Positions 50,177-64,000 are shown, counted from the stretch's first letter. The stretch: DNA of 64,000 nucleotides from an uncultured virus (IMG/VR IMGVR_UViG_3300023110_001575) (IMGVR_UViG_3300023110_001575:1-64000), one strand, 5' to 3'. Numbers and translations are program-made. The notes: generated by a model not told the origin, from the letters alone.

Positions 50177-51011
50177 TTTGTTTTGTTACGGGTGCAGTTT
50201 TACAAATTACAGTTGGCCTATGTATCCTGAATACTTGGCACAGGAGTTTGATAAAACATTTAATTGTGGATTATCTGGTTTAGGTAATTTTGCAATATAT
50301 CATAGATTACTAGGCACTGTTTTAGAAAACAAAATTAAAGAAAATGATACTGTAATTGTTCAGTGGTCAGAGCCATCAAGGCATGATTACCTTGACAAAG
50401 AAGAAGAATGGTCTAATATTGGCGGCGGCTTAGCCTTAGAACTAACTGCAAAAAGATTAGATCATATTATATCTCATAGTTCGTCTTACGTTAAAACTTT
50501 GACATATATGTTTCATACAGTTAACTTACTTGAATCTTTAAAAGTTAACTGGACTTTTCTTTTTCTTACACCAGATGCAATGGCACACCTAAGTATTCAA
50601 AGAGGTAAACATATAGATTTAGCAGGACATCAAAAACGCATAGCACAAAATATGACGAACAAAGTTAACAAGTATCGTCATAAGTTTATCGAGTTACCAT
50701 TAATGCATCACTTTAATCATAAAGATCCTGTGTTTATGACAAATCATGGTGGCAATTGGTGGGATGACCATCCTAGACCTAAATCAACATATAAATTTGT
50801 AAAGGAAGTTTTAGCACCAAAATTACAAATTAATACTAATAATATAACTAGTTACAACAAATATGTTTGTAACAGAATATTTGTACCTGTAAAAGAAAGA
50901 ACATACAATCAAGAATTTATGATTGAAGCAATGCGTGAGTTACCTGACAATCTCAAGTATAGTTATGATATAAGTGAATTAATAAATGAAACAATTGATA
51001 TGGGCATATAA
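50169..51011 (+). CDS. SGNH/GDSL hydrolase-like protein (acyl transferase or esterase)
   Basis: YGCSFT block I, G.GN block II, VQWS and C-terminal DDHP. TTG start. Confidence 0.65.
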   Translation: MSNLFCYGCSFTNYSWPMYPEYLAQEFDKTFNCGLSGLGNFAIYHRLLGTVLENKIKENDTVIVQWSEPSRHDYLDKEEEWSNIGGGLALELTAKRLDHIISHSSSYVKTLTYMFHTVNLLESLKVNWTFLFLTPDAMAHLSIQRGKHIDLAGHQKRIAQNMTNKVNKYRHKFIELPLMHHFNHKDPVFMTNHGGNWWDDHPRPKSTYKFVKEVLAPKLQINTNNITSYNKYVCNRIFVPVKERTYNQEFMIEAMRELPDNLKYSYDISELINETIDMGI

Positions 51012-52293
51012 TTGGATTGGGCCACTAGGTCCTTTAAATAACCATAAGATACCAGATGTATATGATCTGGCTAAGCGCATTGACGACATTGATGTTAAGT
51101 TTAGCGATGCAACAATGGAGCATGATCCTGCTGTTATGGAGATAGGAAATTTTGTACCTTGCAAAATTATTCCATCTTCCGAGATAAAAGATATAGGGGA
51201 TAGCAAATTTTTCTATGAAGTTATTTTAAGTCCTAACTTAAATTACATGTCTATCACAATGGATATGTTTTGCGGATTTTTACAAAGAACGCCTATTCCT
51301 GGCGAGGTTTGGGATAAAATTTACAATGGTAACGGATATCTATTTGTAAACTGTAGATATGAAAGTTTTGTTACGCATAGAGATTTTCAAACATTACATG
51401 ATTATTTTAATAGTCAAGGTGTGCCCTTGAACAAAGTTATCTATGCAACAAACTGTGCAAATATACAAACTATTTACGACAAGTACTGTTTACAAGCAGG
51501 TGTAGGCGAAGATAAATTAAATGTCGAATATATGGGTTTGTATATACAAATTACAAAAGACATTTTACGTGATGAAGTTTATGAAAGTCGTGTTGACTTG
51601 GGCAAACAAGATAGATTGTTTTTAAATTTTAACAGACGTAGTCATGAACATCGTATGTTGCTGTTATTGCAAATGATTAAAAATGATATGCTAGATGACT
51701 GTCATATGAGTTTTGACAGACATGGAGGTGTTAATAGACCATTTGAACATTTTATATACGATTTTGAGAGAACTTCTTCAAAATATAATTTAGAATTTGA
51801 AAGAGAAGATTTTGAAAATTTATGGGACGATTTGCCTTTTGTGCTAGACAGTAAACATTTTGACAGATTTCCTGTAGAAGAACACTTAATGGATACTGCT
51901 GAATGGTATGATCGAACATATATTCATCTTGCAAGCGAAACAAATTTTGAAAATAATGTAATTCATTTGACAGAAAAAACAATGAAGCCAATTATATTCA
52001 AACAACCATTTATTATTGTTGGCCCTGCGTTTACACTTCAGTATCTTAAAAAATTAGGATTTAAAACTTTTGATGCTTGGTGGGACGAAAGTTATGATGA
52101 AACACTAAATGGGAAAGATAGAATGCAAGCAATTATAAAAGTATGTAAAGATATCAAGTCTTGGCCTAAACAAAAATTAAAACAGTTATATACACAAACA
52201 CATGAGATACGAGAATACAATATTCAACATTTTAAAAATTTAAAACCTGTAGAACTATTAGATCTTGTTGAAAAATATGGAGCAGACATATGA
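50986..52293 (+). CDS. GT-B fold glycosyltransferase-like protein (GT10-like C-terminal motif)
   Basis: FLNFNRR..HR and ASETNF...HLTEKTMKPIIFKQPFIIVG...LKKLGFKTF..WDESYD. Confidence 0.6.
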   Translation: MKQLIWAYNWIGPLGPLNNHKIPDVYDLAKRIDDIDVKFSDATMEHDPAVMEIGNFVPCKIIPSSEIKDIGDSKFFYEVILSPNLNYMSITMDMFCGFLQRTPIPGEVWDKIYNGNGYLFVNCRYESFVTHRDFQTLHDYFNSQGVPLNKVIYATNCANIQTIYDKYCLQAGVGEDKLNVEYMGLYIQITKDILRDEVYESRVDLGKQDRLFLNFNRRSHEHRMLLLLQMIKNDMLDDCHMSFDRHGGVNRPFEHFIYDFERTSSKYNLEFEREDFENLWDDLPFVLDSKHFDRFPVEEHLMDTAEWYDRTYIHLASETNFENNVIHLTEKTMKPIIFKQPFIIVGPAFTLQYLKKLGFKTFDAWWDESYDETLNGKDRMQAIIKVCKDIKSWPKQKLKQLYTQTHEIREYNIQHFKNLKPVELLDLVEKYGADI

Positions 52294-53258
52294 GTAAGGT
52301 ATTAGTATGCGGAGCCGGAGGATTCATTGGAGTTCATTTGGTAAGAAGTTTAAAAGCACAAGGACATTATGTAATTGGTGCAGATTTAGAGTATCCTGAA
52401 TTTAGCGAAACCGAATGTGATGAATTTCATATTGTAGATTTGCGAGAACAAGCAGATGTACGTAAATTAATTACAGAAGACATTTATGAAATATATCAAC
52501 TTGCTGCGGATATGGGAGGAGCAGGATATATTTTTACAGGCGATAATGATGCTGATATTATGCACAACTCTGCTATGATTAATCTTAACATTTTGAAAGA
52601 AATGGTTGTTAAAGGTGTAAAACGTATTTTTTATAGTTCAAGTGCTTGCATGTATCCTGAACACAATCAGATGGATCCTGATAATCCTTTGTGTAGCGAA
52701 GAAAGTGCGTATCCAGCAAATCCTGATTCTGAATATGGTTGGGAAAAATTATTCAGCGAACGCTTGTGTATGTCTTTTGAAAAGAATTATGGTATACGTG
52801 CAAGAATGTGTCGTTTTCATAATGTGTTTGGACCAGAAAGCACATGGACTGGAGGTAAAGAAAAATCTCCCGCAGCCTTATGTAGAAAAGTTGCAATGAG
52901 CGAAGACGAAACTGTAGAAATTTGGGGACCTGGCACACAAACAAGAAGTTTTCTTTATATCGATGAAGCTATTGAAGGCATTCATAGGATTATGGAAAGC
53001 GATTATAATCAGCCGTTAAATCTTGGCAGTGAACGTATGATTGCTATAAATGATTTAGCACACCTAATTGCGAGTGTTAACACTAACAAAAAACTGAGAA
53101 TTAATAATGTGCCAGGACCTGTTGGTGTTAATGGCAGAAACAGTCATAATAAACTTATTAAGGAAACCATTGGTTGGGCACCGCAAGACAATTTAGAATA
53201 TGGCTTGCAACAAACTTATCAATGGATACTACAACAAATTGAGAAACAAGAAAATTGA
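52290..53258 (+). CDS. NAD-dependent nucleotide-sugar epimerase, GDP-mannose 3,5-epimerase-like
   Basis: GAGGFIG, QLAADMGGAGYI, YSSSACMYP, YGWEK (YxxxK), GGKEKSPAALCRK and QTRSFLYID. Confidence 0.88.
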   Translation: MSKVLVCGAGGFIGVHLVRSLKAQGHYVIGADLEYPEFSETECDEFHIVDLREQADVRKLITEDIYEIYQLAADMGGAGYIFTGDNDADIMHNSAMINLNILKEMVVKGVKRIFYSSSACMYPEHNQMDPDNPLCSEESAYPANPDSEYGWEKLFSERLCMSFEKNYGIRARMCRFHNVFGPESTWTGGKEKSPAALCRKVAMSEDETVEIWGPGTQTRSFLYIDEAIEGIHRIMESDYNQPLNLGSERMIAINDLAHLIASVNTNKKLRINNVPGPVGVNGRNSHNKLIKETIGWAPQDNLEYGLQQTYQWILQQIEKQEN

Positions 53259-54484
53259 AACTTGCTGCATACTATCATGATAAAATAGGAAATATGCACG
53301 GTGTACAGCCGTACATTTTTGATACGTGGTTATATTCTCGAACACTGAAAAAAGCAGGTTTTGGTATAAAACAAATTAAAGATGGGTGGAACTGGCCTGG
53401 AATATATTTTGTAAGTGTTGCAGGTCATTCTAATGATTGGGGAACACATGACAATCATGTGTTAAACAATTTGCCCAGCGAAGTTGCTAATGCAGTTCGT
53501 AGAGGAAAAATTAAAATTGTAATTGATAATTCGTCTGAAGGTATGAATATGATATTTCCTGGATGTGATGGGTTTTATAATATGCACGAAATAATGGAAG
53601 AAAATGATTTTCATAAAAATAGTGTTATACTTATGGACGGCAATGCAGATTTCTCTACAAATTATTTAACATGGTGTAACAGAAATTGGGATATACCGTT
53701 GTTTGCACATGTTCATAGTTTTACGCATACCTTTTATTTCGATAATAGAATACCACAAAGCGCACTAGTTATAAATGCTATTAAAAATAAAGATTCCAAA
53801 GATTTCCTTAGCATGAATAGAAATACAAGACCATCAAGGCTGGAGCATTTATTTTGGTTGTTAGATACAGGTTATGTAAGCAAGGGACTTGTAAGTGGAA
53901 GTTTACCGCAAAAAGAACAAGTAGGTGCGCCTAGTAGAATTACACTACAGGATGACAATTTATGGAATAAAACCTTGCTCAAAGGTTTGCCTTTAGACAT
54001 AGATGGCGTAGATTGTAAAAGTGACCCTGACAAAGATGCCACTATTTTTAATCATGCCCTTTATGAAAATAGTTTGCTCAGTGTGGTTACAGAAACTGCA
54101 TTTGCAGAAGAAGGGATGTTTATTACAGAAAAAGTAATGAAACCCATTGCAGCAGGACATCCTTTTATGATATTAGGACAATTTAGAGTCTTAAAATATC
54201 TAAGAAGTTTAGGTTATAAAACTGACTTTGAAGGCATAGATCAAAGTTACGATGAGATTTTAAATCCTAACGAAAGATTCCAAGCATTTCATAAAAGTTT
54301 AGAAAATTGGATTAAATTGACAAGAGCACAAAAAGAAGATATAATTATGGAAAATCTAAATAAGATTACATATAATCAAAATTTATTTAGATCTACAAAT
54401 TATAATAGAGATACTGGATTGCGACTCATGACAACTGTTCAAAATCTTTTTAACAATAAATATACTATCAATGAAAAAAATTAG
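53255..54484 (+). CDS. GT10-like glycosyltransferase-like protein
   Basis: FLSMNR..RPSR and VVTETAF...FITEKVMKPIAAGHPFMILG...LRSLGYKTDF..IDQSYD. TTG start. Confidence 0.6.
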   Translation: MKLAAYYHDKIGNMHGVQPYIFDTWLYSRTLKKAGFGIKQIKDGWNWPGIYFVSVAGHSNDWGTHDNHVLNNLPSEVANAVRRGKIKIVIDNSSEGMNMIFPGCDGFYNMHEIMEENDFHKNSVILMDGNADFSTNYLTWCNRNWDIPLFAHVHSFTHTFYFDNRIPQSALVINAIKNKDSKDFLSMNRNTRPSRLEHLFWLLDTGYVSKGLVSGSLPQKEQVGAPSRITLQDDNLWNKTLLKGLPLDIDGVDCKSDPDKDATIFNHALYENSLLSVVTETAFAEEGMFITEKVMKPIAAGHPFMILGQFRVLKYLRSLGYKTDFEGIDQSYDEILNPNERFQAFHKSLENWIKLTRAQKEDIIMENLNKITYNQNLFRSTNYNRDTGLRLMTTVQNLFNNKYTINEKN

Positions 54485-56435
54485 TTTTGTAAATCCGAAT
54501 TTCCAGCAAGGACCTAAAGAGTTTAACGCTTATTACTTACCGTATAGTGTTGGCATACTTTGGTCTTATGTAAACCAGTTTGAATCTATTAATACCCAAT
54601 ATGAACTTGATGAGTTTGTATGGCGAAGAGATCCTATTGCTGAAACAGTTGAACTTTTAAAAGATAACACAGTAGTAGGCTTTTCTACATACATATGGAA
54701 CAAGCAATACAATAATGTTTTAGCCAGAGAATTAAAAAAAGCAAATCCAAATATTGTAATTTTATTTGGCGGACCTGAGCCGCCTATCGAAGACCCAAAC
54801 TTTTTTGAACGTTTTCCTTATATTGATGTTTGTGTAAAACAGGAAGGAGAAAGAAGTTTTAGAAAAATTCTTGAAGCATTAGACGATAGAGATTCTTGGT
54901 TAGATGTAAAAGGTTTAATTGTAAATGTAGATGGTGAAACTGTAGACACAGGTGCTCAACCAAGAATTAACGAATTAGATGAGATACCTAGTCCTTATCT
55001 AACTGGTGTGTTTGATAAACTTATGGTAAAGCATCCTGAAGTGACATGGAATGCTACACTGGAAACAAATCGAGGTTGTCCGTATGCTTGTACTTTTTGT
55101 GACTGGGGCAGTTTAACATATAATAAAGTTAAAAAGTTTAATTTAGAACGTGTGTTTGATGAATTAGAATGGATCGGTAAAACAGGTTGCGACTTTGTAA
55201 GTTTAACGGATGCAAACTTTGGTATTTTTGCAGAACGTGATAGTATGATTGCAGATAAACTTATTCAAGTGCAAAAAACATACGATAACCCAAAAGCATA
55301 TACTATTGCTTGGGCTAAAAATCAAAAGAAAGAAGTTGTAGATATTGTTAGAAAACTTATCTATGATGGCGGTGCAAAAATTGGATTGAATTTATCTGTA
55401 CAGTCAATGGATGAAAATGTTTTAGAAATTATCAAACGTAAAAATCTTGAAATGAATAAAATTGAACAAGTGTTTGATATGTGCGAAGAAAATAATATTC
55501 CGTTATATACAGAGTTAATTTTAGGGTTACCCGGAGAAACATTAGAAACATGGAAAGATAATTTTTATAGTCTATACAAAGCTGGTAACCATACAGGCGT
55601 TACAGTATATCAAGCACAGTTGCTTGAAAATGCAGAAATGAATCTTGTGCAAAAACAAGAATTCAAAATTGAAGGTAGAAAAGTTACTGACTATCTTGTT
55701 GGCGCTTATAACGAAGATGAACTTAAAGAAGGTATAGATATTGTTGTATCTACAAAAGACTTATCTTATGAAAAGATGCTAGATGCACAAGTGTTTAGTT
55801 GGTTTCAAAATACTTTCCATATCAACGGTATCACAAATTATATCAGTCGATTTTTATACAACTTTAGCAACATAGAATATAGTGAATTTTACGAAAAATT
55901 ATTTGACCATATAAGCCGAGATCCTTGGTTAAAAAGCGAAATTGATCGCATAAGAAAATACTATATTAACTGGGGTACTAACGGTAGAATTGATCACCCT
56001 AAAATTCAAGGTATTGAAATACACGGATGGAATCTTATCCACAGCACTATTATTAATTTACACAGTGAAGATAAAGCATCACATGTGTTTAGTGTTGTAA
56101 AAGATTTTATGCAAAAAGAATACGCACATTTTCCACAAGATGTAATGGACCAACTTATGGACTTCCAATCTAGTTACCTTATCGATTACAACAAAATTAA
56201 ATCTTACCCGCTCACAAAAGATTACGATTACGATTTTCTCGGATACATACATAGTGGGGAAGAATTGAATAATAAGAGTACTTTATTTTTTGATTTTCCT
56301 GAAAACCAAGATATGAGTTTACAACAATTTTGTGAACAGATATTTTTTGCAAGAAGAAGGAATTTTGGTAAAGCATGGGTGACCAAGAAAAAGTTGCACA
56401 CATTTACGCATGGCAATATGGAAATGCAGAACTAG
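54471..56435 (+). CDS. Cobalamin-dependent (class B) radical SAM enzyme, probable methyltransferase
   Basis: N-terminal B12-binding-like region (VGFSTYIWN, ILFGGPE, QEGE), ETNRGCPYACTFCDW, DANFG and ELILGLPGET. TAAATA at 54457. Confidence 0.88.
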   Translation: MKKISFVNPNFQQGPKEFNAYYLPYSVGILWSYVNQFESINTQYELDEFVWRRDPIAETVELLKDNTVVGFSTYIWNKQYNNVLARELKKANPNIVILFGGPEPPIEDPNFFERFPYIDVCVKQEGERSFRKILEALDDRDSWLDVKGLIVNVDGETVDTGAQPRINELDEIPSPYLTGVFDKLMVKHPEVTWNATLETNRGCPYACTFCDWGSLTYNKVKKFNLERVFDELEWIGKTGCDFVSLTDANFGIFAERDSMIADKLIQVQKTYDNPKAYTIAWAKNQKKEVVDIVRKLIYDGGAKIGLNLSVQSMDENVLEIIKRKNLEMNKIEQVFDMCEENNIPLYTELILGLPGETLETWKDNFYSLYKAGNHTGVTVYQAQLLENAEMNLVQKQEFKIEGRKVTDYLVGAYNEDELKEGIDIVVSTKDLSYEKMLDAQVFSWFQNTFHINGITNYISRFLYNFSNIEYSEFYEKLFDHISRDPWLKSEIDRIRKYYINWGTNGRIDHPKIQGIEIHGWNLIHSTIINLHSEDKASHVFSVVKDFMQKEYAHFPQDVMDQLMDFQSSYLIDYNKIKSYPLTKDYDYDFLGYIHSGEELNNKSTLFFDFPENQDMSLQQFCEQIFFARRRNFGKAWVTKKKLHTFTHGNMEMQN

Positions 56436-58540
56436 AAAATAAAATCTGTTCACGTGTATGGGATCATATTTATTTTTGGTGGTATCATGAATTTGAAATT
56501 GATCTTTCCCAAAAATCTGTAAAACACATAAACAAAAACAATATAAAATATACTGTTGTAACTTGCATTAACGATTTACCTTTACTTCAAAAAAGACTAC
56601 GAGTAATAGGCTTACGGCCACATGGCAGAGCAGATATTTGGCCTGAGTTCTTCATTGTAAGAGCACATCAAGAACTGTTGAATAACAACTTCTTGTATGA
56701 TGATTTAATATTACAAGACAAACATACTTGGGATATATGGAAGCATCCTTTCTTATCGATGAATGGTAGAGAGCGTCATCATAGAGATGTTTTCATTGAT
56801 GTTCTTGCTAGAGAAAATTTAATAGATAAAGGATTAATAACATACCATCAGACTCATCGGAATGATGATCCTACTCAGTATTTTAAGTATCATGATGGTA
56901 GTAGATTGACTACAAATGATAGGTTTACTGAAAAATTATGTAGTTTTGATTTTAATGATGACTTTATCTATAGTTTCCTACATATTCCTACCGAAAGTTA
57001 TACAGAAGGTATGACAATAACAGAAAAGACAGCCACACCTATGTTATGTAAACTTCCGTTCTTAACTGTCGGTAGTAGATATTTCCATTCTAAATTAATG
57101 GAAATGGGTTTCGAAATATATGATGAAGTTTTTGACTATAGTTTTGACAATTTAAAAACTGACGAAGAACGTATCGAAGGTATAGTTAAAAATATAAAAT
57201 ATGTTGTAGATAACAAACATAATTTGCAAGGTATGTATGACACACTAAAGCCTAAATTACAAAAAAATGTAGAACACATATTTGACAAATACATATCAAA
57301 GTTTGAACACGTGCCTTCCACTGTGCAAAATAGGATTTTGGAAATTACTGCACCAGGAGGTGTAATGGAAGGCGATGAAGGAGAACTTTTAACTTTAGCA
57401 AAAAGGTTTACTGATAGAAAAATCAAAGCCAAAGGTCTAAAAGAAAGAAGAGATTATCTTTGGTATAATTATTGGTGTTCACATGAAAATGGAGATGGTT
57501 TTAATTTTAGACAAATTTTAAAAGATCTTAAAACTGTAAAAACTGATAAAGTTGTAATAGATGGTAGCGCAGAATGGGAACCATGGTTTGATCCAGAATA
57601 TGTAGAATATGTGAATGCTAATCCTAATATAGAAACTATTGTGATTAGTGGTTGTGCAAAAAATTCTTATTATGAAAATAAATTAAAAACAAGCGGCATA
57701 AACAGAATTAGAAGTTTACACTGGTCGACTTTCTTTTTCCATTATTCTACAAAAACAATTCTTGATGCATACGAGGATTATAACACACCAAAAGATGTTA
57801 GAGAATATTGGAATATAGATGACACAACAACAAAATGGCCTTGGATTTGTTTGCAAAACAGAGCACATTTACATCGTTGTCATTTAATTGATAATATTAA
57901 AAAATATAATTTACAAGATGCAGGTTATGTAACATGGATCGATGGCGGCAAAGAAAGACCAGACTTTCCATACAAATACCATGATGGTAAACAAATGACG
58001 CTAGAAAATGATACTTTTAGTCTTGATATGGATTCATACAAATTACCTGAAGAATATTGGCATACACTATGTGATTTTGTATCTGAAGCATGTTGGGAAA
58101 CTATATTTGTTACTGAAAAAACAATATATCCTTTGTTAAGTAAAAAATTATTTTTGGTATGCGGAGCACAAGGATTTCACGAACATTTAGATAAACTTGG
58201 GTTTGTTAGATATGATGAAATATTCGACTACAGTTTTGATAAAGAAACAGACTTAGCAAAACGTGTAGCAATGTATACTGAAGAAATGAGAAAGTACAGT
58301 GAAAATACTTTTTCTACTATTAAGACACACATACAAGAATACAATGAGTTGTATCATAAAATTGAATATAACCACAAGCGTGTGTTTGAAATCTTAAAAA
58401 GAGATCCTTACATGCCTAAAGCAGTAAAATATCAATGGTCAAGAATTGATACTGAAATACAAGATCAAGCATTGCCGCCGTGGCAAAAGTTATATTTAGA
58501 ACTTAAAAAACAAGTGATACGTGCGAGAAAAGAATTATGA
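56375..58540 (+). CDS. Tandem two-domain GT10-like glycosyltransferase-like protein
   Basis: The motif block occurs twice: TESY...ITEKTATPML.KLPFL.VG...GFEIYDEVFDYSFD and SEAC...FVTEKTIYPLL.KKLFLVCG...GFVRYDEIFDYSFD. Confidence 0.6.
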   Translation: MGDQEKVAHIYAWQYGNAELENKICSRVWDHIYFWWYHEFEIDLSQKSVKHINKNNIKYTVVTCINDLPLLQKRLRVIGLRPHGRADIWPEFFIVRAHQELLNNNFLYDDLILQDKHTWDIWKHPFLSMNGRERHHRDVFIDVLARENLIDKGLITYHQTHRNDDPTQYFKYHDGSRLTTNDRFTEKLCSFDFNDDFIYSFLHIPTESYTEGMTITEKTATPMLCKLPFLTVGSRYFHSKLMEMGFEIYDEVFDYSFDNLKTDEERIEGIVKNIKYVVDNKHNLQGMYDTLKPKLQKNVEHIFDKYISKFEHVPSTVQNRILEITAPGGVMEGDEGELLTLAKRFTDRKIKAKGLKERRDYLWYNYWCSHENGDGFNFRQILKDLKTVKTDKVVIDGSAEWEPWFDPEYVEYVNANPNIETIVISGCAKNSYYENKLKTSGINRIRSLHWSTFFFHYSTKTILDAYEDYNTPKDVREYWNIDDTTTKWPWICLQNRAHLHRCHLIDNIKKYNLQDAGYVTWIDGGKERPDFPYKYHDGKQMTLENDTFSLDMDSYKLPEEYWHTLCDFVSEACWETIFVTEKTIYPLLSKKLFLVCGAQGFHEHLDKLGFVRYDEIFDYSFDKETDLAKRVAMYTEEMRKYSENTFSTIKTHIQEYNELYHKIEYNHKRVFEILKRDPYMPKAVKYQWSRIDTEIQDQALPPWQKLYLELKKQVIRARKEL

Positions 58541-59712
58541 AAAAAGTAGCAATGATAGGATGCGGCAAATTAGGACAAGATTGTGCCGAAGTAATGGCAA
58601 CACATTATGATGTTGTAGGTTATGATGTTGCAAAGCGGACACCGCGAAACTTTTCTATGTGTCAAACTATAAAAGACGCAGTTACAGATACAAATATAAT
58701 TTTTGTTGCAGTGCCCACACCACACGAAGCACAATATGGAGGCGAGACTCCTACTAGTCATTTGCCTAATAAAGATTTTGACTATAGTATTGTTGAATCT
58801 GTGTTACGTAAAATTAACAAGCATGTAAACAAATCACAGTTAGTTGTGCTTATTAGTACAGTTCTTCCTGGTACAACTAGAAATAGATTTATCAAACTAA
58901 TAAAAAATGCACGTTTTGTTTACAATCCTTACTTAATAGCAATGGGTACAATTAAATGGGACATGGTAAATCCTGAAATGGTTATTATTGGCACTGAAGA
59001 CGGTAGCACTACAGATGATGCAAAAGAGTTGATCGACTTTTATAAGCCTATAATGCAAAACAATCCTAGATATGAAATAGGCACATGGGATGAAGCAGAA
59101 GCTATAAAAATATTTTACAATACGTTTATCAGTACTAAACTAAGTTTAGTTAATATGATACAAGATGTTGCTGAAACAAGTGGTAATATTAATGTTGATG
59201 TTGTTACAGAAGCCCTTGCAAAAAGCACATACCGAATTATGGGGCCAGGCTATATGCAAGCAGGTATGGGAGACGGAGGCGCATGTCATCCTAGAGATAA
59301 TATTGCTTTACGATATCTAGCACAACGGTTAGACTTAGGTTATGATTTGTTTGATAGTATTATGACTGCAAGAGAAGTACAAGCCAAAAGAATGGCACAG
59401 AGATTGATTAGAGAAGGTAATGATATTTGTATTGTAGGAAAAGCCTATAAGCCAGGAGTTTATTACACTATAGGCAGTAGTAGTATGCTAGTAGGACATT
59501 ATGTAGAAGAATTAGGAGGGTCTCTAACTTATTATGACATCAACACAGGAGATACGGTATTTCCTAAAGCAGATGTATATCTAATAGGTTATTGGGAACA
59601 GTATGTAGAAGAAATTGAATGGCCGCTTGGGTCTACAGTAGTAGATCCTTGGAGGAAACTTAGAGATTCAAACGAATTCAAAGTTGTACATTACGGTAAC
59701 ACACGGAGTTAA
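58537..59712 (+). CDS. UDP-glucose/GDP-mannose 6-dehydrogenase family protein
   Basis: GCGKLG Rossmann motif, FVAVPTP, ISTVLPGT, EAIKIFYN, GDGGACHPRD (catalytic Cys) and AYKP. Confidence 0.9.
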   Translation: MKKVAMIGCGKLGQDCAEVMATHYDVVGYDVAKRTPRNFSMCQTIKDAVTDTNIIFVAVPTPHEAQYGGETPTSHLPNKDFDYSIVESVLRKINKHVNKSQLVVLISTVLPGTTRNRFIKLIKNARFVYNPYLIAMGTIKWDMVNPEMVIIGTEDGSTTDDAKELIDFYKPIMQNNPRYEIGTWDEAEAIKIFYNTFISTKLSLVNMIQDVAETSGNINVDVVTEALAKSTYRIMGPGYMQAGMGDGGACHPRDNIALRYLAQRLDLGYDLFDSIMTAREVQAKRMAQRLIREGNDICIVGKAYKPGVYYTIGSSSMLVGHYVEELGGSLTYYDINTGDTVFPKADVYLIGYWEQYVEEIEWPLGSTVVDPWRKLRDSNEFKVVHYGNTRS

Positions 59713-59719
59713 ATATTGC

Positions 59720-60460
59720 ATGGAACTAGTAACACATCTTAAAACAACATATCCAAACATTAAAAAATTAAATTATGAATTTGTAGGAACACCGCCATAT
59801 CCTATGATTACATTAGACAATTTTTTGCCAGAATCAATGGCAAAAGCAATGGAACTTGAGTGCGAAAGCATACCAGAATTCCATTGGAAAGAATTTACCC
59901 GTCGCGATAGTTATATGCGTGAACTTACAAATTTAGAGGTAGCACCTGTAGCACAAAATTTTACAAATCAAATGCACAGTCAAGCAGGTATGCAATGGTT
60001 GATTAAACTTACTGGTATTAAGGATCTTATTCCTGATCCTTATATTGTAGGTGCAGGTTATAGTAGAAGTTATCCAGGATGTAAATTATCAATCCATACA
60101 GATTTTAACTGGAATGATACAATTAAAGTACATCGTATGCTGAGTATGATAATTTATCTAGGATCGGATTGGGAAGAAGAATGGGGCGGCCATTTACATT
60201 TCAATGACTTCAACAATAAAGGTCCTGTACAAAAAGTTGCACCAATGTTTAATAGAGCAATTATTTGGAGACACCATGAAAGAGGGTTCCATGGGTTTCC
60301 TGATGCACTAGCATGTCCTGAAGGGCGTACAAGAAATGCATTTAGATTGTTCTTTTACGTAAGCAATGCAAAACACGATGATGAGAATTTACCTCATCGT
60401 AGTTTGTATTGGTTTGATGAAGAAACAGGCGAACCCTATGATATTACAACTGAAAGATAG
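59720..60460 (+). CDS. 2OG-Fe(II) oxygenase (prolyl-4-hydroxylase-like)
   Basis: LSIHTDFN (HxD), W.EEWGG.L, P.FNRAII, FHG and a distal Arg. Start set at ATG 59720. Confidence 0.85.
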   Translation: MELVTHLKTTYPNIKKLNYEFVGTPPYPMITLDNFLPESMAKAMELECESIPEFHWKEFTRRDSYMRELTNLEVAPVAQNFTNQMHSQAGMQWLIKLTGIKDLIPDPYIVGAGYSRSYPGCKLSIHTDFNWNDTIKVHRMLSMIIYLGSDWEEEWGGHLHFNDFNNKGPVQKVAPMFNRAIIWRHHERGFHGFPDALACPEGRTRNAFRLFFYVSNAKHDDENLPHRSLYWFDEETGEPYDITTER

Positions 60461-61088
60461 AACTGTAGAGTTAAACGATCCTTGGGATGCAGTCACAGTA
60501 TTTGAAGATAGACTAGCAGAATATGCTGGATCTAAATATGCAGTATGTGTTGATAGTTGTAGTAATTCAATGTTTCTTTGTATGAAATACTTAGGCGTAA
60601 CAGGTCAAACAATTACATTGCCTGCACATACATATTCAAGCACACCAATGCAGTGTATTCACGCAGGTAATAAAATTAAATTTATTGATAAAGAATGGAG
60701 TGGTGATTATTTTTTAGATCCTACTCCTATTGTTGACGGAGCAACTAGATTCCGTAAAGGAATGTATATACCTGAGTCATATTATTGTGTAAGTTTTCAT
60801 CATAGAAAAACACTTAAATTAGGTAAAGGTGGAGTAATACTAACAGATGACATAGACTTTGTAGAATGGTGCCGTCCTATGATTTATGATGGGCGCCACA
60901 AATATGTTAGACATGAAGATGACGATTATAGTTGTATAGGCTATCATATGTATATGACTCCAGAAGAAGCCATAAGAGGTATTACACTCTTTGAAGAATT
61001 AGGACCAGATAATCCTGATACAGGTTCTAGTACAACATACAAAGATTTACGAAAACAGAAAGTATTTGACGAGTATAGAGATGAGTAA
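60438..61088 (+). CDS. DegT/DnrJ/EryC1/StrS-family PLP-dependent aminotransferase (short, ~216 aa)
   Basis: FEDRLAEYAGSKYAVCVDSCS, P..TY, SFHHRKTLKLGKGGVILTDD (PLP Lys loop) and GYHMYM. Start set at ATG 60438. Confidence 0.8.
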   Translation: MILQLKDRTVELNDPWDAVTVFEDRLAEYAGSKYAVCVDSCSNSMFLCMKYLGVTGQTITLPAHTYSSTPMQCIHAGNKIKFIDKEWSGDYFLDPTPIVDGATRFRKGMYIPESYYCVSFHHRKTLKLGKGGVILTDDIDFVEWCRPMIYDGRHKYVRHEDDDYSCIGYHMYMTPEEAIRGITLFEELGPDNPDTGSSTTYKDLRKQKVFDEYRDE

Positions 61089-62124
61089 AATAAACGCAAA
61101 CACAGAATGGGGCACACTTAAAGAAGTAATTTTAGGTAATGCAGAGTGGGCTCAAGTTCCTAGGATCAAAAACAAAGATATACATTGTGTTGACTATGCT
61201 AACATAGATGATTTATCCGACATGCCGGGCGGGCAATATCCAGAAGATGTTATTAACGAAACTATAGAAGACTTAAACGTGTTTCAAAAACAACTTGAAG
61301 ACATTGGTGTAAAAGTCATGCGTCCTACAAAGTTTAATCATGGAGTTACACACATGTCTCCTGATTGGTCTACTGATGCATACTATAGTTATTGTCCACG
61401 TGATAGTGTGCTTACTATTGGTGATATGCTTATCGAAACTCCTATGCCTCTTAGAAGTAGATATTTTGAAACATTTGGTATGAGAAGTATTTTCAAAGAG
61501 TATTTTGTAAACGGCAGTAGATGGATTGCAGCACCTAAGCCTAGATTACCAGATAAACTTTATGATAGATCAGATCTAAATGCTCCTACACTTACTGAAT
61601 ATGAACCAGCATTTGATGCTGCTAACTGTGTAAAGATAGGTAAAGATATATTATATCTTGTTTCAAACAGCGGAAACAAAATGGGCGCACGGTGGCTACA
61701 AAGTACACTTGGTGAAAAGTATACAGTGCATATGTTAGAAAACGTGTATGCATATGTACATTTAGATACTAGTATTATGCCATTGGCACCTGGTAAAGTA
61801 TTATTAAATTCTGAAAGAGTAAAAGAAGAACAACTACCTGACATATTCAACAAGTGGGAAAAAATATGGGCACCTGAACCACATGAAACACAGGTTATGC
61901 ATGATTGGGCACCTGCAAGTCCTTGGCTAGGAATGAATATTTTAAGTTTAAGTGAATCTTTAGTTGCCGTTGAAGAAAATCAACATAGTTTAACAAAAAC
62001 TTTAGAAAATTCAGGCTTTGATGTTATGCACGTAAAGATGAGACATTGTCGAACACTAAGCGGCGGCCCCCATTGTGTTACACTTGATACAGTTAGAGAG
62101 GATGAATATGCAGACTATCGATAA
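61081..62124 (+). CDS. Amidinotransferase (glycine / inosamine-phosphate amidinotransferase family)
   Basis: TEWGTLKEVILG, YCPRD, RSRYFE, FDAAN, SGNKMG, HLDT and LSGGPHCVTLD (Asp-His-Cys triad). Confidence 0.9.
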   Translation: MSKINANTEWGTLKEVILGNAEWAQVPRIKNKDIHCVDYANIDDLSDMPGGQYPEDVINETIEDLNVFQKQLEDIGVKVMRPTKFNHGVTHMSPDWSTDAYYSYCPRDSVLTIGDMLIETPMPLRSRYFETFGMRSIFKEYFVNGSRWIAAPKPRLPDKLYDRSDLNAPTLTEYEPAFDAANCVKIGKDILYLVSNSGNKMGARWLQSTLGEKYTVHMLENVYAYVHLDTSIMPLAPGKVLLNSERVKEEQLPDIFNKWEKIWAPEPHETQVMHDWAPASPWLGMNILSLSESLVAVEENQHSLTKTLENSGFDVMHVKMRHCRTLSGGPHCVTLDTVREDEYADYR

Positions 62125-62998
62125 AGCAATTATTGGCTTAGGTTGTAGTTGGACACAGGGCGAAGGCGGCTATACAGAAGAAACATGGAAGAAACACAAC
62201 GGAAAGATGAATTTTCCTATGGATCAAAGCACAGACCTTATTCCTATGGAATGGGAAAACAGTTGGGTTAATGTATTAGCAAGGGATCATTTTACGGATT
62301 ATACAGCAGTTAATTTAGGTCAGCGAGGTATAGGTAACAGAGCAGCAGCAAGGTGTTTGTACTTGACAGATATAGATTGGGATGCAATGGAAGATTGCAT
62401 TATTGTGTTTATGCTAAGTGGATACGAACGTTTTGATTTTTTTAGACAAGACATGCATTTTGACGAAGAGCCGCATTTTACAAGACACAGAGAACACCCT
62501 TATAAACGTGCTCATCATTATAACTTTAATACTGTATGGCCTAATGATAGTGACAAGTTTTGGAAAGCATATACAAGAACTTGTTGGAGCGAAACATGTG
62601 CAAGTATGGAAACTCTATGTAGTATTTTAGAAGTGCAAAATTTTTGTAAGGCCTATGGATTTAAATTTGTTCTTGCAAATGCATTTGATTATAGAGGAAA
62701 ACATGATTTAGAAACAAGAACAGGCGGTTTGCACGATCAAATAGATTGGACAAAGTATATACACGATTATAGACATTATGATCAATTTGTAGATTTGCTA
62801 GTAGAAGCAGATGATTGGTTACAAGGTGAACATGAAAGATCACAATGGTGGGATAGATATCATAATTTAGATTATCCTAAACAGTTTCTAACAAATGATA
62901 TTCATCCAAATATCAATGGCTACAAGTTAATGGCAAAAGAACTTGCAGAATTTATTACAGAAACATATGGCTTGACAACTGCAAAAAATCCTGTATAA
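62108..62998 (+). CDS. SGNH hydrolase-like protein (paralog of 50169)
   Basis: LGCSWTQG, NLGQRGIGN and C-terminal NDIHPNINGY. Start is approximate (ATG 62102 or 62108). Confidence 0.65.
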   Translation: MQTIDKAIIGLGCSWTQGEGGYTEETWKKHNGKMNFPMDQSTDLIPMEWENSWVNVLARDHFTDYTAVNLGQRGIGNRAAARCLYLTDIDWDAMEDCIIVFMLSGYERFDFFRQDMHFDEEPHFTRHREHPYKRAHHYNFNTVWPNDSDKFWKAYTRTCWSETCASMETLCSILEVQNFCKAYGFKFVLANAFDYRGKHDLETRTGGLHDQIDWTKYIHDYRHYDQFVDLLVEADDWLQGEHERSQWWDRYHNLDYPKQFLTNDIHPNINGYKLMAKELAEFITETYGLTTAKNPV

Positions 62999-63017: not shown

Positions 63018-64000
63018 ATGAGCGATTATAATCAGTCTGCAGATATTGCAGAAAAGCAGTTAAAGAATATCAGCAAGACAATGTGTTATGCAAAATGGAC
63101 ACAGGTTTCTATGCATCTTACAAATGGTAAAACGCATAGTTGCTATCATCCGCCATTGCATGATATGGATGTTGATGCTGTAAAAGCAAATCCTAAAGCC
63201 TTACATAATACTGCACAAAAGAAAGAAGAACGTGCAATGATGCTCAAAGGCGAGCGTCCTGCAGGTTGTGCATATTGCTGGAAGATTGAAGACGTAGGAG
63301 GTCGCAGTGATAGAATATACCGTTCCGGAGAGTATTGGGCACAGAATAGTAGAAGTGATATTATTGATGCACTAGATACAGGTGACGTAGATCCACGTTA
63401 TATGGAAGTTAATTTTAACCAAGCATGTAATTTTTCTTGTATGTATTGTTCTCCACATTTAAGCACAACATGGGAAGAAAAAATCAAAGAACATGGCGAA
63501 TTTAAAATACTAGATGCAGAGGGCAAGGAAACAGGACATAACAATCTAGAGTATTTGCAAGAAAAAGGACTTATGCCTTTGAAAGTACGGCAAAGCGAAA
63601 ATCCTTATCTTGAAGCTTTTTGGAAATGGTGGCCTAGTTTATATAACAAACTAGAAGTATTTCGTATTACAGGCGGCGAGCCGTTAATGGACATCAACAC
63701 ATTTCGTGTACTTGAATATATCTATGAAAATCCAAACACATGGCTTGAATTAAGTATTACAACAAACATGTGTCCTCCTAAAGAAGAACTTATGGATAGA
63801 TTCTTATCTAAAGTAAAAAAACTTGAAGAGATACAAATTTGGGAAGATAAAAATCGTTGGAATCCAGGTAGCGGAAACAACTGGTATGTTAACATGGCAT
63901 TGAAAAACTTTGCGTTGTTTATTTCAGTTGACAGCGTAGGCTCACAAGCAGAATACATACGTGGCGGATTAAAGTGGGATACAATGACACGTAATACTAT
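63018..64000 (+). CDS. Radical SAM protein, paralog of 48794 (runs off the right edge, absent from ORF track)
   Basis: Manual translation from ATG 63018 (AAGGA RBS): MSDYNQSADIAEKQLKNISKTMCYAKW...HSCYHP...GCAYCW...CNFSCMYCSP...FRITGGEPLM. Confidence 0.88.
   Translation, partial: MSDYNQSADIAEKQLKNISKTMCYAKWTQVSMHLTNGKTHSCYHPPLHDMDVDAVKANPKALHNTAQKKEERAMMLKGERPAGCAYCWKIEDVGGRSDRIYRSGEYWAQNSRSDIIDALDTGDVDPRYMEVNFNQACNFSCMYCSPHLSTTWEEKIKEHGEFKILDAEGKETGHNNLEYLQEKGLMPLKVRQSENPYLEAFWKWWPSLYNKLEVFRITGGEPLMDINTFRVLEYIYENPNTWLELSITTNMCPPKEELMDRFLSKVKKLEEIQIWEDKNRWNPGSGNNWYVNMALKNFALFISVDSVGSQAEYIRGGLKWDTMTRNT

What the first reader, a model, noticed from the sequence alone, without database searches (positions are those of the whole stretch)
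59720..62124. Oxygenase + aminotransferase + amidinotransferase trio: possible guanidino-sugar pathway in a phage
Seen: adjacent overlapping genes for a 2OG-Fe(II) oxygenase, a DegT/StrS-type aminotransferase and an amidinotransferase with an intact Asp/His/Cys triad. Known: in streptidine synthesis, oxidation, transamination and StrB1 amidino transfer from arginine convert a hydroxyl into a guanidino group. Inference: the phage may make a guanidinylated sugar or cyclitol, giving a cationic surface or DNA modification. I am not aware of this chemistry being characterised in a phage.
Basis: partly seen in the sequence, partly recalled or inferred. Interest (0 to 1): 0.7.

Follow-up and report, generated by a model that had tools for sequence, protein, structure and literature searches.

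The report
Phage guanidino-sugar cassette in glycan island
An uncultured giant marine phage carries three coupled genes (an iron oxygenase, a half-size sugar aminotransferase and a streptomycin-type amidinotransferase) inside a very large block of sugar-building genes behind its tail fibres; together they most likely put a positively charged guanidino group on a sugar, a product that nobody has yet detected.

Summary
Three overlapping + strand genes encode a 2OG-Fe(II) oxygenase (59720-60460), a DegT-family aminotransferase (60438-61088) and an amidinotransferase (61081-62124). The amidinotransferase matches StrB1 (PDB 1bwd) over its full length at E 1.2e-96, with all catalytic residues kept. 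One correction: the aminotransferase is a half-size form of 216 aa. It keeps the PLP lysine but lacks the C-terminal domain.

The trio lies in a co-directional island from about 45 to 99 kb, right behind the tail-fibre genes of a jumbo T4-like phage. The island holds sugar-nucleotide enzymes, an unannotated family with a glycosyltransferase GT-B fold, 17 radical SAM ORFs and a second amidinotransferase.

In relatives the oxygenase and mini-DegT are an almost obligate pair: 39 of 40 dereplicated loci. The amidinotransferase joins them in 13 of 40 loci, and in 9 of 12 members of the window's own amidinotransferase clade.

Best reading (about 0.45): the cassette makes a guanidino sugar for a phage-built glycan whose target is unknown. 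No cyclitol or kinase genes are present, so it is not a streptidine pathway.

The genes have been noted in print for phages (S-SCSM2R, CP220), but their function is untested. This scan has found such islands before on other DNA.

The parts
59720..60460 (+). 2OG-Fe(II) oxygenase of the P4H-like PF13640 type, 246 aa
   Evidence: PF13640 8.7e-13. H126-x-D128 and R205 are invariant in 31 homologues; a distal His (RGFHG) is visible in all rows but is not listed as invariant. The family is mostly viral in the ESM Atlas. It pairs with mini-DegT in 39 of 40 dereplicated loci.
60438..61088 (+). Half-size DegT/DnrJ/EryC1/StrS-family PLP enzyme ('mini-DegT'), 216 aa
   Evidence: PF01041 2.4e-18. 672 homologues at E<=1e-5; the best 120 are 212-233 aa. 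D100, S119, F120 and K124 (SFHHRK) are invariant. AF2 pLDDT 89.3. Foldseek top hits are GDP-perosamine synthase, ArnB and other sugar aminotransferases, TMq 0.58-0.66. It lacks the C-terminal domain and an internal stretch of about 45-60 aa.
61081..62124 (+). StrB1-type L-arginine amidinotransferase (AMT1), 347 aa
   Evidence: PDB 1bwd 1.2e-96 over the full length. Catalytic residues are invariant. 2086 homologues at E<=1e-10. 374 viral-contig stretches encode a relative. Tree.
58537..59712 (+). NDP-sugar (UDP-glucose/GDP-mannose type) dehydrogenase-like protein, 391 aa
   Evidence: PF03721 6.1e-19 and PF00984 7e-18. TIGR03026 at 158 bits is below its cutoff of 189.8. phrog_9148 4.7e-98. It sits next to AMT in L025-29 and near it in L023, L030, L036 and L073.
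62102..62998 (+). Unknown protein of 298 aa that overlaps the end of AMT1. It may be SGNH-like, judged only by eye from GCSW...DIHPN motifs.
   Evidence: No Pfam, NCBIfam, PHROG or PDB hit. It follows AMT1 in L023, L024, L030 and L073 at 55% identity.
63018..64000 (+). N-terminal-twitch radical SAM protein; it continues to 64541 beyond the window
   Evidence: NF033640 5.3e-74, 249.7 bits against a cutoff of 170.
56375..58540 (+). 721-aa protein placed by BLAST clustering in the unannotated GT-B-like family; I read it as two tandem copies, which no call tested
   Evidence: It falls in the same BLAST cluster as the 409-aa and 435-aa proteins. It has no Pfam hit. Its own fold was not modelled.
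54471..56435 (+). B12-binding radical SAM enzyme, KedN5-like C-methyltransferase type
   Evidence: PF04055 7.9e-13 and PF02310 1.9e-8. NF033712 8.7e-76, below its cutoff.
53255..54484 (+). GT-B-fold glycosyltransferase-like protein, 409 aa
   Evidence: AF2 pLDDT 81.4. Foldseek: trehalose-6-P synthase 5.8e-6, T4 beta-glucosyltransferase 2.5e-5, SdgB, BshA and a PBCV glycosyltransferase; TM only 0.35-0.47. This family is the commonest neighbour of AMT, in 22 of 42 groups.
52290..53258 (+). SDR-type NDP-sugar epimerase, reductase or dehydratase
   Evidence: PF01370 1.4e-42. The best NCBIfam match is GDP-L-fucose synthase at 117 bits, below its cutoff.
50986..52293 (+). Member of the same GT-B-like family, 435 aa
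   Evidence: BLAST cluster 1. No Pfam or NCBIfam hit.
48794..50176 (+). N-terminal-twitch radical SAM protein
   Evidence: NF033640 5.8e-94, 315 bits against a cutoff of 170. PF04055 5.2e-8.

Best explanation
The trio is a cassette that tailors an amino sugar into a guanidino sugar.

Shown: AMT1 is a StrB1-type amidinotransferase with its whole catalytic apparatus intact. The neighbouring 216-aa protein is a sugar-aminotransferase large domain that keeps its PLP lysine. An iron/2OG oxygenase is almost always paired with that protein.

Inferred mechanism:
1. A keto sugar is made. It may come from the oxygenase (hydroxylation of a carbinol C-H, then collapse to C=O) or from the co-encoded NDP-sugar dehydrogenase and SDR enzymes. 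The sugar may be nucleotide-activated or already glycan-bound.
2. The mini-DegT transaminates it to a primary amine.
3. AMT1 takes the amidino group of L-arginine onto Cys332, releases ornithine, and passes the group to that amine, giving a guanidino group (+42.02 Da).
4. Co-encoded GT-B-like transferases build the sugar into a glycan. Radical SAM, B12-methylating and other enzymes of the island tailor it further.

The island sits directly behind the tail-fibre genes and has no lipid-carrier, flippase or polymerase genes. The glycan is therefore most likely put on phage (fibre or virion) proteins in the cytoplasm. That last step is the weakest inference.
For: AMT1 identity:
- PDB 1bwd 1.2e-96 over equal lengths, whereas AGAT, SxtG and HsvA need about 12 extra residues.
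- D108, R127, D179, H227, D229 and C332 are invariant.
- In the tree, AMT1 lies in a 78-row clade (SH-aLRT 94) with Streptomyces and Mycobacterium plasmid genes annotated as inosamine-phosphate amidinotransferase. Those genes sit beside a dehydrogenase, an aminotransferase and a phosphotransferase.
- That clade is separate from the glycine-type/HsvA-like clade and from the Campylobacter-phage clade.

Mini-DegT:
- It is of the sugar type by profile (9bgp, 7b0m, perosamine synthase) and by fold.

Linkage:
- All four junctions overlap.
- The trio is present in 9 of 12 rows of the window's AMT clade, in several gene orders. A B12 radical SAM gene or another gene can be inserted, and the pair can be inverted.
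- The oxygenase lies within 8 kb of mini-DegT in 39 of 40 groups. It is adjacent in 23, and the one miss is at a contig end.
- AMT is present in 13 of those 40 groups.
- In L067/L131 the mini-DegT is fused to the GT-B-like domain.

Sugar context in the window and in relatives:
- NDP-sugar dehydrogenase, SDRs, GDP-mannose 4,6-dehydratase, RmlC-like epimerase, PfkB kinase and GT-B-like proteins.
- Where AMT is absent, a carbamoyltransferase often follows mini-DegT (L158; also L054 and L130). That is another enzyme that caps an amine or hydroxyl.

Other:
- Contigs from four RNA libraries carry the region at 100% identity, and single contigs span oxygenase plus mini-DegT. This is weak, because DNA carry-over is not excluded.
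Against: - No product has been observed, and acceptor specificity cannot be read from sequence.
- The role of the oxygenase is unexplained. In relatives that have a 4,6-dehydratase the keto sugar needs no oxygenase, yet the oxygenase is still there.
- The mini-DegT lacks the C-terminal domain that normally closes the active site. It may not be a classical NDP-sugar transaminase.
- In 2 of 12 rows of the window's AMT clade (L026, L036), AMT has no mini-DegT or oxygenase within 8 kb.
- In most of the more distant viral AMT groups the neighbours are not sugar genes. They include a P-loop kinase, ferredoxin, DNA-methylase-like proteins and nucleotide-metabolism genes.
- More distant AMT relatives are fused to TauD-like or HalD-like oxygenases, aaRS-like or NRPS domains, which is amino-acid chemistry.
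- The GT-B assignment rests on low TM-scores of 0.35-0.47.
Confidence: 0.45

Rival explanations
1. Amino-acid or polyamine amidination. AMT1 amidinates a free amine such as lysine (giving homoarginine), glycine, putrescine or spermidine. The oxygenase and PLP enzyme modify the same small molecule, giving a metabolite such as a cationic DNA-condensing polyamine or an unusual amino acid.
For: HsvA is the second-best PDB match (2.2e-68); that it is a polyamine amidinotransferase is recalled. More distant relatives are fused to TauD-like or HalD-like oxygenases, an FAD oxidase, an aaRS-like domain or an NRPS A-T module. Many viral AMTs of the roughly 50%-identity clades sit among non-sugar genes.
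Against: The mini-DegT resembles sugar aminotransferases, not amino-acid ones. The immediate context is sugar enzymes and GT-B-like proteins. The mini-DegT is fused to a GT-B-like domain in L067. AMT1 groups with StrB1-like sequences, not with HsvA-like or glycine-type ones.
Confidence: 0.17
2. DNA hypermodification. The island builds an elaborate, possibly guanidino-bearing sugar or side chain on a modified base of the phage DNA, to evade restriction.
For: T4 beta-glucosyltransferase is the second Foldseek hit of the GT-B-like protein. In some relatives the oxygenase plus mini-DegT pair lies directly after ThyX (L114). AMT neighbours in some relatives include DNA-methylase-like, DUF1599, NT5C and nuclease genes. 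This phage also has QueE-like, GTP cyclohydrolase and weakly QueC-like genes.
Against: No hydroxymethylase or base-kinase gene was seen in the 126 kb held, though that is only about 35% of the genome. The island lies behind tail fibres, not in the replication module. The GT-B hits are generic.
Confidence: 0.12
3. Aminocyclitol or aminoglycoside-like small molecule. The phage makes a streptidine-like guanidino cyclitol or a diffusible antibiotic, as the 'antibiotic synthesis genes' label of PMC12801897 suggests.
For: StrB1 is the best match. The enzyme palette (DegT, twitch radical SAM, B12 radical SAM C-methyltransferase, carbamoyltransferase in relatives) recalls aminoglycoside tailoring; that resemblance is recalled. 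PMC12801897 proposes this for S-SCSM2R (passages read).
Against: No inositol-phosphate synthase, 2-deoxy-scyllo-inosose synthase, Gfo/Idh/MocA dehydrogenase, aminoglycoside kinase, exporter or resistance gene was found in the island. There are many glycosyltransferase-like genes, and the island sits next to tail fibres. A lytic phage has little time to profit from an antibiotic (inference).
Confidence: 0.08
4. Direct protein modification. The oxygenase hydroxylates residues of a virion protein and AMT1 converts lysine side chains to homoarginine, with no sugar acceptor for AMT1.
For: PF13640 is the prolyl/lysyl-hydroxylase type (weak PDB hits to prolyl hydroxylases). In S-SCSM2R an amidinotransferase (ORF266) and a 2OG oxygenase (ORF269) were found in the purified-virion proteome (PMC12801897, passage read).
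Against: This reading gives no role to a sugar-type PLP enzyme. StrB1-type enzymes are known only for small acceptors (recalled). The authors themselves suggest carry-over of highly expressed proteins.
Confidence: 0.08

Closest known systems
StrB1, L-arginine:inosamine-phosphate amidinotransferase of streptomycin biosynthesis (Streptomyces griseus, PDB 1bwd)
   Same: Full-length match at E 1.2e-96 with the same length and no large indels, and all catalytic residues at the same numbers. An aminotransferase of the DegT family lies nearby, as in the actinobacterial cassettes.
   Different: Identity to a Streptomyces plasmid homologue is only about 43%. The gene is encoded by a phage. There are no cyclitol-forming, NAD-dehydrogenase or kinase partners; instead there is a 2OG oxygenase, a half-size DegT and glycosyltransferase-like genes. 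The acceptor is unknown.
'Antibiotic synthesis genes' of Synechococcus phage S-SCSM2R (ORF305 AHBA_syn-like, ORF306 radical SAM, ORF308 2OG oxygenase, ORF309 inosamine amidinotransferase; PMC12801897)
   Same: The same kinds of genes stand side by side: a short DegT-like protein of 195 aa, a radical SAM enzyme, glycosyltransferases, and a 2OG oxygenase directly upstream of an amidinotransferase (41% identical to AMT1).
   Different: It is a T4-like cyanophage with a smaller cluster. ORF309 belongs to another viral AMT clade. The function is untested there too.
Radical SAM plus putative glycine amidinotransferase module of Campylobacter phages CP220/CPt10 (PMC2853527)
   Same: A phage module of five radical SAM genes, an amidinotransferase and nucleotide-diphospho-sugar-transferase-like genes.
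   Different: Its amidinotransferase is 24-34% identical to AMT1 and falls in a different subfamily, with a Streptomyces glycine-type enzyme. No oxygenase plus mini-DegT pair is annotated there.
Host-recognition cluster of pelagimyophages and cyanomyophages, which carries glycosyltransferase and radical SAM cassettes (PMC7029224)
   Same: A hypervariable block behind the tail fibres and a giant VrlC-like protein, with LPS-type sugar genes, UDP-glucose dehydrogenase and radical SAM cassettes (passages read).
   Different: By its baseplate protein, this phage is nearer to jumbo phages such as Salicola SCTP-2, Atu_ph07 and PA5oct, at 35-36% identity. That paper does not mention an amidinotransferase (0 occurrences of 'amidino').
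Ugd/ArnA/ArnB route to UDP-4-amino-4-deoxy-L-arabinose, and GDP-perosamine synthesis
   Same: An NDP-sugar dehydrogenase, an SDR and a DegT-type transaminase stand together. ArnB and perosamine synthase are among the best structural matches of the mini-DegT. A GDP-mannose 4,6-dehydratase lies near the pair in L144.
   Different: The SDR is not ArnA-like (best match is GDP-fucose synthase, below cutoff). The transaminase is truncated. An oxygenase and an amidinotransferase are added.

Membership tests
Amidinotransferase family (AGAT/StrB1, pentein fold) | Full-length sequence similarity to solved members | tested here: met
   1bwd 1.2e-96, 5wpi 2.2e-68, 6u1r 2.3e-62, AGAT 2e-52 and weaker.
Amidinotransferase family (AGAT/StrB1, pentein fold) | Catalytic Cys nucleophile with His and Asp partners (StrB1 C332, H227, D179, plus D108 and D229; these roles are recalled) | tested here: met
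   All are invariant in 28 sequences and aligned to the same positions of 1bwd.
StrB1 subtype (short form, open active site) | About 347 aa, without the extra segments of the glycine-type enzymes | tested here: met
   338 residues align to 338 of 1bwd, but to 346-350 of HsvA, SxtG and AGAT. AMT1 groups with actinobacterial StrB1-like genes in the tree.
StrB1 subtype | Acceptor is scyllo-inosamine 4-phosphate and donor is L-arginine | not testable with these tools
   This needs an enzyme assay.
Streptidine-type cassette (dehydrogenase + aminotransferase + kinase + amidinotransferase on a cyclitol) | Cyclitol-forming enzyme, NAD-dependent dehydrogenase and phosphotransferase beside the amidinotransferase | tested here: not met
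   These are present in the Streptomyces and Mycobacterium reference loci. None was found among the island's ORFs from about 41.5 to 101 kb that were scanned against Pfam.
DegT/DnrJ/EryC1/StrS aminotransferases | Pfam PF01041 above its gathering score | tested here: met
   67 bits against 19.8.
DegT/DnrJ/EryC1/StrS aminotransferases | PLP Schiff-base lysine in the SF(H)xxK motif | tested here: met
   S119, F120 and K124 are invariant. 'sfhhrktl' aligns to 'sfhprktl' of 9bgp.
DegT/DnrJ/EryC1/StrS aminotransferases | Two-domain architecture of about 360-400 aa | tested here: not met
   The protein is 216 aa. The best 120 homologues are 212-233 aa. The C-terminal domain and an internal stretch are absent.
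2OG-Fe(II) oxygenases (PF13640) | HxD...H iron triad and a 2OG-binding Arg | tested here: met
   H126, D128 and R205 are invariant. A distal His is visible in every row of the alignment. The assignment of roles is inferred.
GT-B glycosyltransferases (for the 409-aa neighbour family) | Two Rossmann-like domains that match solved GT-B enzymes | tested here: inconclusive
   57 Foldseek matches at E <= 0.001, and every one listed is a GT-B-type glycosyltransferase or a close relative (probability 0.97-1.0). TM-scores are only 0.35-0.47. No Pfam or PDB sequence match.
Phage virion glycosylation systems | A glycan demonstrated on virion proteins | not testable with these tools
   Only the position behind the tail-fibre genes is shown.

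The most novel reading that the evidence does not exclude
Giant aquatic phages use a dedicated oxygenase, half-size aminotransferase and amidinotransferase cassette to make a guanidino sugar. No such sugar is known from any glycan (recalled). They then display it, within a glycan tailored by radical SAM enzymes, on their own tail fibres or virions. This would be a cationic, arginine-like sugar coat that affects adsorption or evasion of host defences.
Probability: 0.25. Interest if true: 0.85.

Novelty: new variant of a known kind. Interest (0 to 1): 0.62.

Why it matters
Guanidino sugars are known to me only from aminoglycoside-type antibiotics (recalled). A phage-made glycan that carries one would be new glycochemistry.

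The cassette is widespread. 374 viral-contig stretches encode an AMT relative and 672 mini-DegT homologues were found.

The 216-aa mini-DegT and its obligate oxygenase partner form an undescribed enzyme pair. My literature searches found no functional study.

The island, with 17 radical SAM ORFs behind the tail fibres, is a large uncharted source of enzymes. It may also bear on phage host range.

S-SCSM2R is a cultured phage with a comparable cassette, so the question can be tested at the bench.

Tried and rejected
- Complex prediction on the oxygenase (A4) with mini-DegT (A2) gave no verdict: score 0.00 against a mark of 0.32. It is neither for nor against binding.
- Pfam, NCBIfam, PHROG and PDB sequence searches gave nothing for the 298-aa gene after AMT1, nor for the 313-, 280-, 435-, 721-, 854- and 302-aa proteins. 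My SGNH reading of the 298-aa protein is by eye only.
- A PDB profile search with the GT-B-like family found only chance-level hits.
- phmmer of the oxygenase against PDB gave only marginal prolyl-hydroxylase hits, E 0.08 and 0.33.
- No tRNA gene in the window. The host was not identified.
- The single genome-contig scan returned one locus, a Pelagibacteraceae single-cell assembly at 38% identity. Its context was not examined, and cellular carriers of the trio were not surveyed.
- I could not place solved StrB1, AGAT, SxtG or CyrA sequences in the tree, because they are not stored proteins. Annotated plasmid genes served as labels instead.
- The tree is a quick search with SH-aLRT support only and midpoint rooting. 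AMT2's position is unresolved.
- Parts of the region without RNA-library contigs say nothing.
- An ArnA-like reading of the SDR was considered and dropped.
I saw only that 24 papers contain both search terms, 'virion glycosylation' and 'mycobacteriophage'.
Full report
**What is there**

The window is the first 64 kb of a 126,358-bp viral record, which CheckV estimates to be 35% complete. The three ORFs of the finding are real, lie on the + strand and are translationally coupled.
- The oxygenase runs from 59720 to 60460.
- The aminotransferase runs from 60438 to 61088, overlapping the oxygenase by 23 nt.
- The amidinotransferase runs from 61081 to 62124, with an ATGAGTAA overlap of 8 nt.
- The next gene starts inside the amidinotransferase's last codons.

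Pfam gives PF13640 (8.7e-13) and PF01041 (2.4e-18), and only a marginal ADI hit for the third protein.

**The amidinotransferase (AMT1)**

phmmer against all PDB chains settles its identity.
- StrB1 (1bwd) matches at E 1.2e-96 over residues 8-345 against 3-340, with equal lengths.
- HsvA (2.2e-68), SxtG (2.3e-62) and AGAT (2e-52 and weaker) follow, and they need 346-350 residues for the same span.

In an alignment of 28 homologues, D108, R127, D179, H227, D229 and C332 are invariant. By the 1bwd alignment these carry StrB1's own numbers. Their catalytic roles are recalled from the StrB1/AGAT literature.

The family is large.
- 2086 proteins match at E<=1e-10, and the best 120 are 62-96% identical.
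- 1378 50%-identity clusters match at E<=0.001.
- 374 of 379 pattern-matched stretches in IMG/VR encode a relative. Only the best 80 were fetched.

I built a quick maximum-likelihood tree of 120 rows. The rows were:
- 42 AMT ORFs from the dereplicated viral loci;
- 65 cluster representatives;
- AMT1 and AMT2 from this genome;
- 7 annotated plasmid genes;
- S-SCSM2R ORF309, the CP220 gene and one SAG gene.

The tree gives these groupings:
- AMT1 sits in a fully supported clade of 12 viral rows.
- All viral AMTs lie in a 78-row clade (SH-aLRT 94). This clade also holds the Streptomyces and Mycobacterium plasmid genes annotated as inosamine-phosphate amidinotransferase.
- Those two genes sit beside dehydrogenase, aminotransferase and phosphotransferase genes.
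- The Dolichospermum glycine-type, Pantoea and Bradyrhizobium genes form a separate 22-row clade.
- The Campylobacter phage CP220 gene groups with a Streptomyces glycine-type gene in a third clade of 14 rows.

The tree is midpoint-rooted with SH-aLRT support only. Solved reference sequences could not be included.

**The aminotransferase is a half-size form**

Homologues start at the Met of ATG 60438, so the protein is 216 aa.
- 672 homologues were found at E<=1e-5, and the best 120 are all 212-233 aa.
- D100, S119, F120 and K124 are invariant, within the motif SFHHRK.
- The profile aligns this motif to the lysine motif of solved sugar aminotransferases. It skips about 45-60 residues of the large domain and has nothing for the C-terminal domain.
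- The AF2 model is confident, with pLDDT 89.3.
- Its best Foldseek matches are GDP-perosamine synthase, ArnB, DesV, WbpE, QdtB and AHBA synthase, with TMq 0.58-0.66 and TMt about 0.35-0.41.

It therefore works like a sugar-type PLP enzyme but fails the two-domain architecture of the family.

**The oxygenase**

H126-x-D128 and R205 are invariant in 31 homologues, and a distal His is visible in every row. PDB sequence hits are marginal and point to prolyl hydroxylases. Atlas clusters of this family are mostly viral.

**Do the three genes travel together?**

Forward test, using 80 AMT loci that reduce to 42 groups at 95% identity:
- The oxygenase family occurs in 12 groups.
- The mini-DegT occurs in 10, or 11 counting the fused form in L067.
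- An unannotated family that includes the window's 409-, 435- and 721-aa proteins occurs in 22.

Within the window's 12-row AMT clade:
- The full trio is present in 9 rows.
- It is absent within 8 kb in 2 rows (L026, L036).
- It is not assessable in 1 row (L041, cut by the contig end).
- Gene order varies. A B12 radical SAM gene or another gene can sit between mini-DegT and AMT, and the pair can be inverted. This argues for functional linkage rather than mere inherited synteny.

Reverse test, using 60 mini-DegT loci, of which 59 have a called ORF, in 40 groups:
- The oxygenase is within 8 kb in 39 groups and adjacent in 23. The single miss starts at a contig end.
- AMT is present in 13 groups.

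So the fixed unit is oxygenase plus mini-DegT, and AMT is an optional third member. Several large contigs carry AMT and mini-DegT about 20 kb apart, judging from the contig ranges. Genome-level co-occurrence is therefore higher than these counts.

In L067/L131 the mini-DegT is fused to the unannotated family's domain in a 605-aa protein.

**Context**

PHROG hits show a T4-like layout: gp55-type late sigma factor, SbcCD-like nuclease, baseplate hub and wedge, a 4806-aa virion protein, and tail-fibre proteins at 37.5-43 kb. The baseplate wedge protein is nearest (35-36% identity) to jumbo phages Salicola SCTP-2, Atu_ph07, Phosso and PA5oct.

From about 45 kb to 99.6 kb all genes are co-directional. 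Among them:
- an NDP-sugar dehydrogenase-like gene directly upstream of the trio, and an SDR;
- 17 ORFs with radical SAM hits, 3 of them B12-binding;
- six N_Twi_rSAM (NF033640) family members above the family cutoff, out of the radical SAM ORFs submitted to NCBIfam;
- a second, divergent amidinotransferase at 76841-77887, which matches 1bwd at 1e-25 and keeps the catalytic motifs by eye.

The 409-aa protein folds with pLDDT 81.4. It matches only GT-B-type glycosyltransferases: trehalose-6-phosphate synthase at 5.8e-6, T4 beta-glucosyltransferase, SdgB, BshA and a chlorovirus glycosyltransferase. TM-scores are low, 0.35-0.47.

Relatives add more sugar enzymes around the pair or around AMT: GDP-mannose 4,6-dehydratase, RmlC-like epimerases, a PfkB kinase, TPP-dependent E1-like subunits, PhyH oxygenases, DUF6071 and carbamoyltransferases.

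No cyclitol-forming enzyme, kinase, lipid-carrier transferase, flippase or polymerase turned up in this island's Pfam scans.

**Expression**

Six metatranscriptomic runs hold 33-75% of the sampled words of the region. In the four runs I laid, contigs at 100% identity cover most of it. Single contigs span oxygenase plus mini-DegT: 59747-61071, 59731-60913 and 60041-61073. DNA carry-over is not excluded, so this is only a hint.

**Most likely mechanism**

Shown: there is an intact StrB1-type amidinotransferase, a sugar-type PLP enzyme that keeps its lysine, and an intact iron/2OG site. The genes are tightly coupled, and the neighbourhood is sugar-nucleotide and glycosyltransferase-like.

Inferred: a keto sugar is transaminated by the mini-DegT. 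AMT1 then converts the new amine to a guanidino group at the expense of arginine. The sugar enters a glycan built by the island.

Relatives put a carbamoyltransferase where others put AMT. This fits the idea that the pair creates a nucleophile which alternative enzymes then cap.

The oxygenase's exact step is open. It could generate the ketone, or hydroxylate the sugar or the acceptor.

The target is the least certain part. Virion fibres are favoured by position and by the lack of envelope-export genes. The host surface and DNA remain possible.

**Against this reading**
- Two rows of the window's AMT clade lack the pair.
- Most of the more distant viral AMTs sit among non-sugar genes.
- Distant relatives are fused to amino-acid-type oxygenases, an aaRS-like domain or an NRPS module.
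- The oxygenase persists even where a 4,6-dehydratase could supply the ketone.
- The mini-DegT's truncation may mean a different reaction.

**Literature**
- PMC12801897 (passages read) annotates S-SCSM2R ORF305, 306 and 309 as 'antibiotic synthesis genes'. It says their purpose is unclear, and it reports another amidinotransferase and a 2OG oxygenase in the virion proteome.
- The S-SCSM2R record shows the same neighbourhood: glycosyltransferases, a 195-aa AHBA_syn-like gene, a radical SAM gene, and a 2OG oxygenase directly before the amidinotransferase.
- PMC2853527 (passages read) noted five radical SAM genes plus a putative glycine amidinotransferase in CP220 and CPt10.
- PMC7029224 (passages read) describes tail-fibre-adjacent hypervariable clusters with glycosyltransferases, UDP-glucose dehydrogenase and radical SAM cassettes in pelagimyophages.
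- Five searches found no functional study of a phage amidinotransferase. Supplements were not consulted.

**Earlier notes of this scan**

After my own analyses I looked up the scan's notes. Islands of this kind, including a 'half-size sugar aminotransferase, streptomycin-type amidinotransferase, small iron oxygenase' cassette, had already been reported on at least ten other genomes. The notes agree with my reading but are not independent evidence.

**Verdict**

This is a new variant of known enzyme kinds. It is widespread, uncharacterised and testable at the bench.

Noticed in passing
G000:C1 76841-77887 (= L005:13841-14887), outside the window: A second, divergent amidinotransferase paralogue of 348 aa. 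It is 30% identical to AMT1 and matches 1bwd at 1e-25. It lacks roughly the first 40-50 residues seen in StrB1 and is flanked by two N-twitch radical SAM genes, an arrangement that recalls the Campylobacter phage module.
   Followed up: partly
window 48794 to G000:C1 96441: 17 ORFs with radical SAM hits in one co-directional island, 3 of them B12-binding. Six members of NF033640 (N_Twi_rSAM) score above the family cutoff. This is an unusually large radical SAM complement for a phage.
   Followed up: partly
window 22513-36933: A single ORF of 4806 aa (phrog_10938 virion structural protein, E 0) lies just before the tail-fibre genes. It is a candidate carrier of whatever the island makes.
   Followed up: no
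L007:14520-15413 (-), L007:16139-16822 (-), L006:12794-13537 (+): QueE-like radical SAM, GTP cyclohydrolase and a weak QueC-like protein. The phage may also make a 7-deazaguanine DNA modification.
   Followed up: no
L067:9695-11512 and L131: A 605-aa natural fusion of the mini-DegT to the unannotated GT-B-like domain, preceded by AMT and the oxygenase.
   Followed up: partly
G000:C1 72313-72978 and 72923-73237: A 221-aa radical SAM ORF is followed by an overlapping 104-aa ORF that holds only a SPASM domain. This may be one gene split by a frameshift or an assembly error.
   Followed up: no
G000:C1 96434-97723 (L006:14434-15723): A TctA-family tricarboxylate transporter membrane subunit (PF01970, 2e-57) is encoded at the end of the island, with a redoxin at 86418-87005. 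Both are odd cargo for a phage.
   Followed up: no
Proteins P0248, P0318, P0253, P0254 and P0267: Distant amidinotransferase relatives are fused to other domains: a TauD-like dioxygenase, a HalD-type halogenase, a class II aaRS-like domain, an FAD oxidase or an NRPS A-T module. Pairing of an amidinotransferase with an oxygenase therefore recurs outside phages.
   Followed up: no
L114-L118, upstream of the oxygenase plus mini-DegT pair: In one group of viral contigs the pair lies directly after a ThyX gene. It is followed by an unannotated protein of about 450 aa instead of AMT.
   Followed up: no
window 6161-6595 (-): A 144-aa ORF matches a PHROG labelled NAD synthetase (4.8e-38) and also homing-endonuclease PHROGs. 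It sits between the replication and recombination genes.
   Followed up: no
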